Shown piece after piece: positions 12,283 through 16,200 of a DNA stretch of 64,000 bases; the first letter of the stretch is position 1, and every line of letters starts with the position of its first letter. Position numbers: made by a program. The stretch is from Octopus vulgaris (lineage: Eukaryota), in contig OX597832.1 of assembly GCA_951406725.2 (NCBI GenBank), positions 26,536,001 through 26,600,000 on the forward strand, in the 5' to 3' direction.

Positions 12283-12773
12283 GATACTTGTACAAGATGC
12301 CCCATGGTCAGATGGAACCCCAAACCATGTGGTTTTGAAGTGAACTTCTAACCAGTTATGCTGTTACCTAAAAAATGATGATGATGATGATTTATCACAA
12401 TAGCCCAAGTCATTTAATGAAATATTGTTTATCTTGTTGGTAATTATTCAGTTTAACGATAATTTATCTTGACCTCTTGTGTTTACACCCGTTTATTTCT
12501 AAAGTCACAACTTATCAGGGTGGGGAGTGGGGGGCGGGGCTTTTAATGTTAATTTTTTTTCGGTTTTTTCCCTGAATGGTTTGGTATGTTTGGTTGTTGT
12601 TTGCTATTATCATTCATTCCAAGTTTGTGTGAGAATGTGTGTGTGTTTGTTTATGTATTGTGTTGATTGTCCTTAGATTTGTGTGTGTGTGTGTGAAGTG
12701 GTGAGTCGAGTTTGTTCTGTAACAAATGAGTGTGTGACTCACATAGAATACTGCTCCCATATCTGGGATGGTG

Positions 12774-12859
<86 letters not shown>

Positions 12860-12944
12860 ATGTGTGTGTGTATGTATGTATATATTGTGTGTGTGTGTGT
12901 GTATGTTATATATATATATATATATATATGTACATATATATATG

Positions 12945-12975
<31 letters not shown>

Positions 12976-13002
12976 GTATATATATATATGTATATATATA
13001 TG

Positions 13003-13099
<97 letters not shown>

Positions 13100-13194
13100 G
13101 TATATATATATATATGTATATATATATATGTATATATATGTATATATATATATGTATATATATATATGTATATATATATATGTATATATATATG

Positions 13195-13275
<81 letters not shown>

Positions 13276-16200
13276 CACCATCCCAGATATGGGAGCAGTA
13301 TTCTATGTGAGTCACACACTCATTTGTTACAGAAACCCACCCCTTCTCCACTTCCGTCTGTTGTTACCATTCCCCCCGATCTTCCCCTCTCTGCGGCTGA
13401 ACGCTCCGTCCTTGGTAGGGGTCTGCGTTTCATTCCCCTCACTCCATCCTGTAAGGAATTCCAGACGCGAGTTGATGTCCACAGCTTTGTGCGCCGTGTC
13501 CGGTTGGGTGCTCATTACCACGACTCGCCACCCACACCCAACGAAGAGGACTGCTTCACTGGCCTGGGCCGCTGACCATCCCCGTGGACGCCTGCCCCTG
13601 GCCAGATCCTAGCAGTGGATCTTTTCGCGGGCGCTTGTCAGCGTGCATTGGAGCGGTTCAACTTCTCCAGGCGCCAACGCCGCCTCAACATCTCCCCGGC
13701 TGAGCTCTTGGCTCTTCGTTCCCTCCAACGGCGCGCTGACATTATCATCAAACCGGCTGACAAGGGTGGAGCTGTAGTGGTGTGGCGCGCGGACCTCTAT
13801 AGGGCCGAGGCTTTCCGCCAACTCAATGACACCTCCTTCTATTCCCCTCTACCCTCTAACCCCACACGTAGCTACCAACAGACGGTATCCTCTACTGTCC
13901 ACGACCTCATCTCGTCCTCTCGTCTCCCCCGCACCGCATCCAACCTAATTGTGCGAACCCCACGTACCCCCACCATTTACTTCCTCCCCAAAATCCACAA
14001 ACCCAACAACCCTGGCCGCCCCATTGTCTCCGCCTGTAACTGCCCCACGGAGCTCATCTCTAAATACCTCGACCGTGTCCTTGCCCCCTAGTGGCATCTC
14101 TTCCCTCCCACATCCACGATACCAACCATGCTCTCCGGCTTTTCAACTCTTTCTCCTTTCCTCCCAGCTCCTCCAAAATCCTTTTTACTATGGACATCCA
14201 AAGCCTCTATACTGTTATCCCTCACCACGAAGGACTGCAGGCCCCTCGACACTTTCTTGACCTCCGCTCTAACCCTGTACCTGACACCTCCACACTCATT
14301 CGTCTGGCCGAACTTGTCCTTACTCTGAACTGCTTCTCGTTCGCGGGCGAGTTCTACCATCAGGTCTCGGGAGTGGCCATGGGAATGCGAATGGGCCCCA
14401 ACTATGCGAACCTGTTCGTTGGCTATGTTGAGGCCCAAATATTCTCTAATTTCACTGGTCCCACTCCTGAACTATATGGTCGTTACATCGACGACATTAT
14501 CGGTGCCACCTCACTCTCCCGCGAACATCTAGATTCCTTCCTCTCTTTCGTCCAATCTTTCCATCCAGCCCTCCACTTCACTTCCACTATCTCCAACACC
14601 TCTGTCTCCTTCCTCGACATTTCGGTTAGCATTCTTCACTCCACTCTTACCACCTCCATTCACTACAAACACACCGACTCACACTCATACCTCAACTTCT
14701 CTTCCTCCCACCCAGAACACACCAAGCTTTCCATCCCCTATTCCCAATTCCTCCGTCTACGTAGGCTCTGTAGTGACGACCATGACTTTGAGACTCAGTC
14801 TCAACGTATGGCTCACCACTTCACCCTACGTGGATACCCCCTCACCACTATCCACACCGCCCTTGCCAGAGCACGGTCCGTGGACCGTGTATCTGCTCTC
14901 TCTCCCCGAACCCGCCCTGTAGTCTCCCGCCTCCATTTTCCCCTCACTTACCACCCCACGACCCTACGTCTCCAACGCACCATTCTTCGAGCTTTCCGTC
15001 ATCTCCAGTCCGACCCGTCCACTTCACACCTCTTCCCTAACCGACCCCTCCCCTCTTTCAAACGAGCCCACAACCTTCGAGACCTTTTGGTCCATAGCTC
15101 CTTCCCTGACCCTACCTCCCAACCCGGCTCGTTCCCCTGCTCCCGCCCACGTTGCCGCACTTGCCCTTACCTCTCCAACACCACCCGCCTCACTAGCACC
15201 CACCATCGACCCTATCCCATCATCCACTCCTTCACCTGCACCTCCAGCAATATTATCTATTGCATCTCTTGCTCTCTCTGCAATTCCTTGTACATCGGAC
15301 AAACGGGACGCCGCTTGGCTGACCAGTTCGCGGAACACCTTCGTGACATCCACCTTGCGAACGACACACTGGTCTCACGCCATTTCCGCTCCACCGGTCA
15401 CTCCTTGCAACACCTATCTGTGTTCGGTTTGTCCTTACACAGAGGCCATCCGGATTCCCGTTTGCGCCGTGAACAGGAATTAATCTTCTCTCTTCGCTCT
15501 TATACGCCATTTGGTCTCAACTCTCCCCCTCCTCATCTAACCCCCCTCTCCCCCTCCTCACCTATCCTTTCCCCCCGACCCCTACTTCTTCAGTCCTTCA
15601 TCCTTTCACCCCTACTCCCCTTCCCTTCTTCCCTCTTTCTCCCTCCCTCCTTCCCTCTTCCCCTTCCCTCTCTTTCCTCACTCCCCTTCCTTCTCCCCTT
15701 CCTTCTCCCCCCTCCTCCCCTTCCTTCTCCCCCTCATCTCTCTCCCCCATCCTCTCCCCCTCCCCCTCTTCTCCTCACTACACCACACAACTTTACACAT
15801 CACATCATATATGATGTGCCATACTAATACATACACCAACTAATACATACTAATACGTACTAATACATACTAATACATACTAATACATACACCAACCCTA
15901 TACATACACACGTCCAGACCCCTCATACGCACTTATACTCTCTCATACACACACACACACACACTTATACATACTAATACGTACTAATACATACTAATAC
16001 ATACTAATACATACACCAACCCCATACATACGCACGTCCAGACCAATCCTACGCACTAATACTCTCTCATACACACACACACACACACACACCCTTATAC
16101 ATACTAATACATACACCAACCCTATACATACACACGTCCAGACCCCTCCTACGCACTATTAGCTGGTCCTTCAACCCTATTATCAACCCTATTATCTCCC

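What the first reader, a model, noticed from the sequence alone, without database searches (positions are those of the whole stretch)
12715..13334. PLE 5' junction is an inverted copy of the flank across the (TA)n target: footprint of hairpin self-priming
Seen: 60 bp left of the (TA)n tract reappears exactly inverted on its right. The mirror extends into the microsatellite (G interruption at 12788, C at 13263) and joins directly to mid-ORF PLE sequence. The PLE 3' end also sits in (TA)n. Inference: the cut target strand ended in self-complementary (TA)n, folded back, was extended along its own flank, then jumped to the cDNA. Inverted 5' segments of PLEs are known, but usually as element sequence; here the segment appears to be target-derived.
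Basis: partly seen in the sequence, partly recalled or inferred. Interest (0 to 1): 0.72.

Follow-up and report, generated by a model that had tools for sequence, protein, structure and literature searches.

The report
Inverted flank copy beside a retrotransposon
Sixty bases of ordinary flanking DNA have been copied backwards across a long TA repeat and joined to the cut-off front end of a Penelope-like retrotransposon, most likely a scar of fold-back DNA synthesis at a broken TA repeat; this kind of scar is already known for human LINE-1, and it is seen here once.

Summary
Bases 12715-12774 recur as an exact reverse complement at 13275-13334. With one 2-nt gap the mirror runs on through the G12788/C13263 interruption and a long pure TA run, giving arms of 133 and 126 nt with no substitution. 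The 361-nt middle of the tract is not mirrored.

The right arm abuts a single, + strand, 5'-truncated Penelope-like element (13335-16465). This copy lacks about the first 170 of roughly 900 codons. Its 3' end meets a second (TA)n at 16466-16505.

Composition places the right arm with the host genome and not with the element. A profile test found no element homology in it, but that test has little power. The 60-mer is not a repeat within the window.

Best reading: a target-derived inverted duplication made by snap-back priming through self-complementary (TA)n. It probably formed at the break the element made on integrating. A later break at the fragile tract gives the same structure and cannot be excluded.

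The same outcome has been described for LINE-1. I could not test the empty site, the family consensus or the assembly.

The parts
12715..12774 (+). Left arm L: unique 60-nt flank, inferred to be the original copy
   Evidence: Exact reverse complement of 13275-13334. GC is 25/60, the same as the 60 nt to its left. No other copy in the window.
12775..12847 (.). Left, mirrored part of the TA tract: 13 nt of TA, G12788, then 59 nt of pure TA
   Evidence: Run lengths and G positions. Aligns to the right-hand run with no substitution.
12848..13208 (.). Unmirrored core of the microsatellite (a TG block, then TA units with G about every 14 nt). It would be the loop of the snap-back.
   Evidence: 39 G-type interruptions and one C (12933). 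In-register comparison shows the mismatches.
13209..13274 (.). Right, mirrored part of the TA tract: 54 nt of pure TA, C13263, then 11 nt of TA. Inferred to be newly copied or annealed.
   Evidence: The 54-nt pure run is longer than any other pure run in the right half of the tract, where the largest is 33 nt.
13275..13334 (-). Right arm L': inverted copy of L that forms the element's 5' junction
   Evidence: 60/60 complementary. Host-like composition: log-likelihood ratio -12.2 bits, with 0 of 400 sampled element windows as low.
13335..16465 (+). 5'-truncated Penelope-like element. ORF pieces are 13336-13572, 13576-14091 and 14064 to about 15540. There is an in-frame TGA at 13573-13575 and one frameshift near 14064-14091. 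The 3' UTR runs from about 15540 to 16465 and contains tandem repeats.
   Evidence: ORFs. RVT_1 at 28 bits. 73 homologues, the best at E 2.9e-163 and 55% identity, full length 866-1690 aa. The alignment places the start at about residue 170-180 of a 904-aa relative. The 3' UTR motif is confined to 15820-16406.
16466..16505 (.). (TA)n at the element's 3' junction, taken to be the rest of the target microsatellite
   Evidence: Tandem repeat of period 2, 20 copies. Sequence read.

Best explanation
The locus was once A-L-(TA)n-R. A Penelope-like element that targets (TA)n cut the tract and made its cDNA from the right-hand bottom-strand end. That cDNA stopped, or was cut back, at the position now numbered 13335.

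On the left-hand end, the 3' end of the top strand was a run of TA. It had no homology to the cDNA end, but it was complementary to itself. It snapped back and paired with the long pure TA run next to L, looping out about 360 nt of interrupted repeat. It was then extended along its own strand. This copied the rest of the TA run, G12788 (giving C13263), 13 nt of TA and the 60-nt flank L (giving L').

Synthesis then left this template at 12715, and the new end was joined to the cDNA end, after which the second strand was completed. An equivalent route has the cDNA jump onto the bottom strand of L, followed by TA:TA annealing of two 3' ends. It gives the same product.

Shown: the structure, the host-like nature of L', the truncation of the element and the (TA)n at both ends. 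Inferred: the order of events, the link to integration, the strand involved and the enzyme (the element's reverse transcriptase or a host repair polymerase).
For: - Arms of 133 and 126 nt with no substitution, including a mirrored interruption.
- The tract has 41 G and 2 C, so C13263 reads as a copy of G12788 made right-from-left.
- L' is host-like. Its GC is 25/60. Element windows average 33.3/60; 2.2% of 2147 windows are that low, and none of those in the first 600 nt (lowest 29). The Markov log-likelihood ratio is -12.2 bits, with 0 of 400 element windows as low and 48% of 2000 background windows at least as high. GC jumps to 35/60 immediately after 13334.
- L' adds about 1 bit to the score against element profiles, no more than shuffles do: 161 of 500 and 160 of 500 shuffles score at least as high.
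- The element is 5'-truncated, and its 3' end meets (TA)n.
- No TA lies between L' and the element. That fits a partner end that was cDNA and not repeat (inference).
- From papers: Zn-finger-linker Penelope-like elements insert into (TA)n (Craig 2021, PMC8557442, passages and section 11). A purified Penelope-like protein cuts and extends both strands, which makes a double-strand break (Frangieh 2024, PMC11167929, parts 1-2 of 4). Self-priming has been proposed for these elements (Arkhipova 2013, PMC3846280, Discussion). LINE-1 insertions with an inverted duplication of genomic DNA on the reciprocal end, primed by a self-annealed 3' overhang, have been described (bioRxiv 10.1101/2024.12.14.628481, passages).
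Against: - This is one locus only. No other copy of the element or of the 60-mer is in the window, and no eukaryotic genome could be searched. The family consensus upstream of 13335 and the empty site are therefore unknown.
- Two protein searches aimed at the junction region found nothing.
- A later break in this 500-nt TA tract, repaired by fold-back synthesis, would leave the same structure.
- The element carries an in-frame stop and a frameshift, while the arms show no substitution in 60 nt. This is compatible with equal age but hints that the arms could be younger.
- The profile test for element homology in L' has little power, because that part of the protein is variable.
- Microhomology at the L'/element joint cannot be assessed.
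- The assembly of a 500-nt TA tract is unverified.
Confidence: 0.45

Rival explanations
1. Post-insertion repair scar. The element was already sitting in the (TA)n tract. Later the long, hairpin-prone tract broke or stalled a replication fork. The left 3' end folded back, copied TA plus L, and was joined to a right-hand end that had been resected to 13335. This deleted the rest of the TA and the element's 5' part.
For: It gives the identical final structure. Fold-back templated inverted insertions at breaks are a known repair outcome; I saw only search listings and abstract starts for PMC11724301, PMC5728401 and PMC4912351. The arms have no substitution while the element ORF has a stop and a frameshift. 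That long (TA)n tracts are fragile is recalled, not taken from a call.
Against: A break inside a TA tract leaves TA on both ends, and these can simply re-anneal. A joint to non-TA element sequence needs extra loss on the right side only (inference). 5' truncation is the usual state of these elements, so no deletion needs to be invoked. None of the other 38 TA runs in the window shows a flank inversion.
Confidence: 0.25
2. Assembly artefact. The 500-nt TA tract was mis-joined or mis-polished, which created an apparent inverted flank.
For: Long TA tracts are hard to assemble. Complex Penelope-like structures are said to cause assembly problems (Craig 2021 passage). No reads were available.
Against: A fold-back chimeric read would continue into the reverse complement of the sequence left of L. 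Here the inverted copy stops after 60 nt and continues into an unrelated element. The middle of the tract is not palindromic.
Confidence: 0.1
3. L and L' are the terminal inverted repeats of a small foldback or MITE-like DNA element with a (TA)n core. The retrotransposon merely lies next to it.
For: Formally it is a perfect pair of inverted termini around a simple-repeat core. The window is rich in short dispersed repeats that contain TA runs.
Against: There is no target-site duplication: the flanks read ...GAGTTTG and ACCCACC.... There is no other copy of the 60-mer in 64 kb, although other repeat families have 10-30 copies there. The retrotransposon would have to start exactly at the outer end of the right terminus. 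The lone C at the mirror position argues for copying.
Confidence: 0.07
4. L' is the element's own coding sequence, so the copy extends to 13275. L would then be a short inverted snippet of the element, as in twin priming or the usual head-to-head inverted 5' copies.
For: L' is open in the element's frame. By eye, RYGSSIL resembles KFASLV of relatives at the same spacing from VVTIP. Element-derived inverted 5' copies are typical of these elements.
Against: Composition is host-like, with an abrupt change at 13335. The profile score gain is no better than for shuffles. The sequence left of L is not the reverse complement of the element. The arms lie outside the TA tract and not head to head. TG-rich repeat lies on both sides of L with the same polarity.
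Confidence: 0.05

Closest known systems
LINE-1 insertions with an inverted duplication of genomic DNA on the reciprocal end (bioRxiv 10.1101/2024.12.14.628481, Fig. 4D-E as described in the passages read)
   Same: A retrotransposon 5' junction preceded by an inverted copy of the upstream target flank. [quoted passage not shown] TA/AT homology is reported at the turn.
   Different: Those cases are LINE-1 in human cell clones and tumours, with 2-bp homology and small hairpins. This case is a Penelope-like element in a germline assembly. Pairing runs through about 55-70 nt of microsatellite across a loop of about 360 nt, and there is a single example.
Inverted 5'-truncated copies, inverted pLTRs and junction palindromes of Penelope-like elements (Craig 2021, PMC8557442; Arkhipova 2013, PMC3846280)
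   Same: An inverted repeat at the 5' side of a Penelope-like insertion. Self-priming has been proposed as the cause.
   Different: There the inverted segment is element sequence (pLTR or ORF) placed head to head. Here the inverted segment has host composition, mirrors the target flank, and is separated from it by the target microsatellite.
Fold-back (snap-back) templated inverted insertions at double-strand breaks: SD-MMEJ, polymerase theta extension in cis, yeast foldback insertions (PMC5728401, PMC4912351, PMC11724301; listings and abstract starts only)
   Same: A 3' end anneals to its own strand, is extended for a short stretch, and is then joined to the other end. This leaves an inverted copy of the flank.
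   Different: The yeast paper's abstract gives sizes of mostly about 5-34 bp. Here at least 73 nt were newly copied (L plus the 13-nt TA run next to it), possibly up to about 126 nt, and the partner end is a retrotransposon.
LINE-1 twin priming (named in the passages read; the mechanism is recalled)
   Same: The second target strand's 3' end is used as a primer during integration, which produces an inversion at the 5' side.
   Different: Twin priming copies the element's RNA, so the inverted part is element sequence. Here the template was the target DNA itself.

Membership tests
Penelope-like element, canonical C-terminal endonuclease type with Zn-finger linker (Neptune/Nematis-like) | Reverse transcriptase related to those of Penelope-like elements | tested here: met
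   73 homologues, the best at E 2.9e-163 with 98% query coverage. Pfam RVT_1 scores 28-28.5 bits, just under the 29.6 cut-off. DKGG is seen in the translation; the motif name comes from Craig 2021.
Penelope-like element, canonical C-terminal endonuclease type with Zn-finger linker (Neptune/Nematis-like) | C-terminal GIY-YIG endonuclease preceded by a CX2-5CxxC linker | tested here: met
   The translation reads CSRPRCRTC, then IYCISC...LYIGQTGRRL. It aligns over its whole length with relatives, of which P0001 passes Pfam GIY-YIG at 23.9 bits against a cut-off of 22.6. The window copy itself did not reach Pfam GIY-YIG at E 0.1. The linker definition comes from Craig 2021 passages.
Penelope-like element, canonical C-terminal endonuclease type with Zn-finger linker (Neptune/Nematis-like) | Hammerhead ribozyme in the pLTR / 3' region | tested here: inconclusive
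   By eye there is a hammerhead-like core at about 16335-16362, with a U where the consensus has A (numbering recalled). Rfam listed no hammerhead at gathering score or at E up to 10. The fold is no better than shuffles, z = -0.81.
Penelope-like element, canonical C-terminal endonuclease type with Zn-finger linker (Neptune/Nematis-like) | pLTRs / partial tandem arrangement | tested here: not met
   There is a single 5'-truncated copy with no repeat of its 3' region upstream. This is expected for a truncated copy, so it does not argue against membership.
Penelope-like element, canonical C-terminal endonuclease type with Zn-finger linker (Neptune/Nematis-like) | Insertion into (TA)n | tested here: met
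   The 3' end abuts (TA)n at 16466-16505, and a 500-nt TA tract lies on the 5' side. The target preference comes from Craig 2021.
Retrotransposition-coupled inverted duplication of the target (as described for LINE-1) | Inverted copy of the upstream flank placed between the target and the element's 5' end, with homology at the turn | tested here: met
Retrotransposition-coupled inverted duplication of the target (as described for LINE-1) | Duplication and insertion arose in one event (empty site has one copy of the flank and no element) | not testable with these tools
   No eukaryotic genome, allele or read set could be searched.
TIR transposon / MITE / foldback element | Target-site duplication flanking the inverted termini | tested here: not met
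   The flanks read ...GAGTTTG and ACCCACC....
TIR transposon / MITE / foldback element | Multiple dispersed copies | tested here: inconclusive
   There are no further copies in the 64-kb window, and none of the other 38 TA runs has non-simple inverted flanks. The genome was not searched.
Element-derived inverted 5' copy (PLE head-to-head / twin priming) | The inverted segment is element sequence | tested here: not met
   Host-like composition. No gain in profile score over shuffles. No match to the part of the element that is present. Power is limited because the family's missing 5' part is unknown.

The most novel reading that the evidence does not exclude
The locus is a trapped view of how (TA)n-targeting Penelope-like elements normally start second-strand synthesis. 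In this reading the self-complementary TA overhang of the cut target snaps back and is extended by the element's own polymerase, which then jumps to the cDNA. The same chemistry, acting on element templates, would make the family's typical inverted 5' copies. It would also tie the microsatellite preference to those structures. This predicts recurrent target-flank inversions at the 5' junctions of such families.
Probability: 0.1. Interest if true: 0.7.

Novelty: new member of a known kind. Interest (0 to 1): 0.4.

Why it matters
How Penelope-like elements finish integration is still called an open question by the people who study them. That includes second-strand priming, the origin of their inverted structures and their liking for microsatellites (Craig 2021 passage; Frangieh 2024). 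A natural junction in which the target's own flank was copied backwards through the TA repeat suggests that the non-priming target end can be free, single-stranded and extendable. That matches recent findings in LINE-1.

One locus proves little by itself. Its value is as a search image. A genome-wide count of flank inversions at the 5' junctions of this family, compared with TA tracts that lack insertions, would show whether this is part of the element's mechanism or ordinary break repair.

Tried and rejected
- **Family consensus upstream of 13335.** Two protein searches scored on residues 168-266 of the ORF 12775-13572, against longer and against near-length proteins, found nothing. Full-length relatives are at most 55% identical, so no consensus could be inferred.
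- **L as a relic of a LINE ORF.** The peptide EYCSHIW in L reminded me of a non-LTR ORF2 motif (recalled). A 30-aa query against 1.84 billion representatives gave 0 hits at E 0.001, and the motif occurs only in the two arms. I dropped the idea; a 30-aa query has little power.
- **L' as element coding sequence.** The MAFFT placement looked suggestive, but the profile and shuffle test gave 161 of 500 and 160 of 500 shuffles scoring at least as high.
- **Simple perfect hairpin.** Rejected, because the middle 361 nt are not mirrored.
- **Flank inversions as a general property of TA tracts here.** Rejected. For the 38 runs outside this tract, the best inverted flank matches were 6-30 nt, and all matches of 14 nt or more were simple repeats.
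- **L as part of a repeat shared with the rest of the window.** No hit spans 12355-12774.
- **Two independent 60-nt insertions, or a 60-nt non-autonomous element.** Rejected, because there are no other copies at the window's other TA tracts.
- **Hammerhead ribozyme by Rfam.** Not found.
- **Literature.** Searches for 'Penelope-like' with 'inverted duplication', and with 'hairpin' or 'self-priming', listed no paper whose title or abstract start describes a target-derived inversion at a Penelope-like junction (listings only).
- **Collections not used.** I did not use genome contigs (prokaryotes only) or the phage, plasmid and E. coli collections, because they cannot hold this locus. I did not look at supplementary files of the papers cited.
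Full report
**What is there.** The window holds a 500-nt AT-dinucleotide tract at 12775-13274. The 60 nt to its left (12715-12774, L) recur as an exact reverse complement on its right (13275-13334, L').

In strict register the complementarity runs 11 nt further into the tract, so 12715-12785 pairs with 13264-13334. The first mismatch is at 12786/13263. If one TA unit of slippage is allowed, the mirror goes on:
- Left side: 13 nt of TA, G12788, then 59 nt of pure TA.
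- Right side, read backwards: 11 nt of TA, the complement of C13263, then 54 nt of pure TA.

A global alignment of 12715-12847 with the reverse complement of 13209-13334 (133 vs 126 nt) has no substitution, one 2-nt gap and a 5-nt length difference at the inner end.

The middle, 12848-13208, is not mirrored. It carries a TG block and then TA units with a G roughly every 14 nt. That makes 39 G-type interruptions and a single C. Over the whole tract there are 41 G and 2 C, and one of the two C sits exactly at the mirror position of the outermost G.

The repeat is far beyond chance. A blastn of 12697-12774 against the window returned only the query itself and the inverted copy (E 8e-28), and the next best match was 13 nt.

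**The neighbour.** From 13335 onward the + strand encodes a Penelope-like element.
- Stop-to-stop ORFs at 13336-13572, 13576-14091 and 14064-15827 read through DKGG, a reverse transcriptase, a CSRPRCRTC linker and a GIY-YIG-type endonuclease.
- Pfam gives RVT_1 at 28 bits, just under its cut-off.
- A search of longer proteins gave 73 hits at E 0.001 or better among 8000 scored candidates. The best was E 2.9e-163 at 55% identity and 98% coverage, and most hits were 880-930 aa long.
- I aligned 6 of these 73 with the window's first ORF piece. The window's [11 protein letters not shown] falls at residue 180 of a 904-aa relative. About 170 codons and everything upstream are therefore missing, so this is a 5'-truncated copy.
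- The copy has one in-frame TGA (13573-13575) where relatives have a residue, and one frameshift near 14064-14091.
- The 3' untranslated part holds tandem repeats. A 12-mer occurs 7 times in the window, all between 15820 and 16406 on the + strand. This ties the 3' region to the element up to about 60 nt before a second (TA)n at 16466-16505.
- There is only this one copy in the window.

The join between L' and the element is fixed only to within about 25 nt. Demonstrable homology starts at 13360. The stretch 13335-13359 is in frame and C-rich like the element, but it lies in a variable part of the protein.

Four lines favour L as the original and L' as the copy.
1. Composition. L' has GC 25/60. 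Sixty-nt windows of the element's ORF average 33.3/60. Only 2.2% of 2147 windows are as low, and none of those in the first 600 nt (lowest 29). A second-order Markov comparison gives L' -12.2 bits. None of 400 sampled element windows was as low, and 48% of 2000 background windows were at least as high. GC steps from 25/60 to 35/60 exactly at 13334/13335, and the 60 nt left of L also have 25/60. One caveat applies: the element model was trained on the part of the element that is present.
2. Homology. I built two profiles of full-length relatives. One used 65 of the 73 hits, dropping P0005, P0052 and P0053 as fused or long and P0069-P0073 as weak. The other used the 4 closest hits. Adding the in-frame translation of L' raised the score by about 1 bit. 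That is no more than shuffled versions: 161 of 500 and 160 of 500 shuffles scored at least as high. The region is variable, so the test has little power.
3. Polarity. Almost all interruptions in the tract are G on the + strand. The C at 13263 therefore reads as a reversed copy of G12788 and not the other way round.
4. Context. TG-rich simple sequence of the same polarity lies on both sides of L, at 12636-12696 and 12848-12905. L therefore looks embedded in its surroundings.

Against these, the placement of RYGSSIL against KFASLV of relatives looked suggestive by eye, but it did not survive the shuffle test.

**Is it a repeat or a mobile element of its own?** I found no support for that.
- No other copy of the 60-mer is in the window.
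- No window repeat spans 12355-12774.
- The flanks of the arms show no target-site duplication.
- Of 40 merged TA runs in the window, 2 are parts of this tract. The other 38 have best inverted exact matches of 6-30 nt in their 150-nt flanks, and every match of 14 nt or more is itself simple repeat.
- A 30-aa translation of L found nothing among 1.84 billion representative proteins.

**Mechanism.** A plain hairpin at the tip of the tract cannot give this structure, because the whole tract would then be palindromic. The data fit a snap-back in which a terminal TA run paired with the distant pure TA run next to L. This looped out about 360 nt. Synthesis then copied the rest of that run, G12788, 13 nt of TA and L, and left the template at 12715 to be joined to position 13335 of the element.

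I think the broken end was most likely the one produced when the element integrated, for these reasons:
- These elements target (TA)n (Craig 2021, passages and section 11).
- A purified element protein cuts and extends both strands (Frangieh 2024, parts 1-2 of 4).
- 5' truncation is the rule for these elements.
- No TA lies between L' and the element, as expected if the partner end was cDNA (inference).
- Exactly this outcome has been described for LINE-1, as insertions with an inverted duplication of genomic DNA on the reciprocal end, primed by a self-annealed 3' overhang with TA/AT homology (bioRxiv 10.1101/2024.12.14.628481, passages).
- Self-priming has also been proposed for Penelope-like elements from palindromes at inverted junctions, though for element sequence (Arkhipova 2013, Discussion).

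A variant in which the cDNA jumps onto the bottom strand of L, after which two TA 3' ends anneal, gives the same product.

**Rivals.**
- A later break or stalled fork in this long TA tract, repaired by fold-back synthesis with loss of the element's 5' part, predicts the same sequence. I cannot exclude it. Fold-back templated inverted insertions at breaks are well documented; I saw only listings and abstract starts for these papers.
- An assembly error cannot be tested. A fold-back chimeric read would, however, continue into the complement of the sequence left of L, and this sequence does not.
- I rate the TIR-element and element-derived readings low, for the reasons given above.

**What stayed unchecked.** The empty site, other copies of the family, the genome-wide copy number of the 60-mer and read support are all unchecked. 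No eukaryotic genome collection was available. Two protein searches aimed at the junction found nothing. I did not look at supplementary files of the cited papers. Those of Craig 2021 list family consensus sequences that might bear on the clade assignment.

**Comparison and verdict.** The element is a member of the canonical C-terminal-endonuclease Penelope-like elements with the Zn-finger linker. A hammerhead motif is visible only by eye and was not confirmed.

The junction works like the LINE-1 'reciprocal-end inverted duplication' and like fold-back templated insertions in break repair. It differs from the usual inverted 5' copies of Penelope-like elements in that the inverted piece is target DNA and not element DNA. 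My searches listed no paper describing this for a Penelope-like element (listings only).

It is therefore a new instance of a known kind of scar. It is real in the sequence and plausible in mechanism, but it rests on one locus and the timing is unproven. I put interest at about 0.4.

Noticed in passing
window 12696-12702 and 13347-13353: Thirteen nt outside each arm, and in register, GAAGTGG on the left faces its complement CCACTTC on the right. Only 8 of 5000 shuffles gave an in-register run of 7 or more within 60 nt, while total matches (22/60) were unremarkable at 237 of 5000. This is a post hoc observation. It could be chance in G-rich sequence or a trace of microhomology used in the joining.
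   Followed up: partly
window 16335-16362: A hammerhead-ribozyme-like core is visible by eye in the element's 3' region: CTGTTGA, a GAGC/GCTC stem, then GAAAC followed by a short palindrome. It lies about 100-120 nt before the element's 3' end. That distance resembles the internal reverse-transcription start reported for the anole element. Rfam did not list it, and its fold is no better than shuffles.
   Followed up: partly
window 11900-12354 and about 20-30 other places (e.g. 22773-23080, 10402-10718, 19769-20049, 25700-25993, 41002-41312, 51992-52318, 61865-62105): An abundant dispersed repeat of about 300 nt, 62-91% identical between copies, contains or abuts TA or ACATATATAT microsatellites. 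The copy at 11900-12190 is followed by (TA)50 and a partial direct duplicate at 12280-12354. It is probably a SINE- or MITE-like family. It is not related to the 60-mer.
   Followed up: partly
window 13573-13575 and about 14064-14091: The element copy carries one in-frame TGA, at a position where relatives have K/H/P (RKS, EKS, EHS, EPS), and one frameshift between the motifs LISKYLDRVLAP and LVASLPSHIHDTNHAL. The copy is therefore non-functional as it stands.
   Followed up: yes
window 15610-16196: The element's 3' untranslated region contains a CT-rich low-complexity stretch (15610-15765) and tandem repeats: a 10-nt CATACTAATA unit and a 124-nt unit present twice at 94% identity. One more copy of the 12-mer lies near the 3' end at 16395-16406.
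   Followed up: partly
window 17225-17659 and 7639-7752: A 217-nt unit is present twice in tandem at 93% identity. A 96%-identical 114-nt match to 17187-17300 lies about 9.5 kb upstream at 7639-7752. A further family with about a dozen copies in the window matches 17013-17098.
   Followed up: no
window 12737-12757 (+) and its mirror in 13275-13334 (-): L translates to ...[12 protein letters not shown]. This recalled a motif from non-LTR retrotransposon ORF2 proteins (from memory). The motif occurs only in the two arms, and a 30-aa query found no protein at E 0.001.
   Followed up: yes
whole window: The window is very rich in simple repeats, with 40 merged (TA)n runs of 12-356 nt in 64 kb. No Rfam family reached its gathering score. 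The organism was not determined.
   Followed up: no
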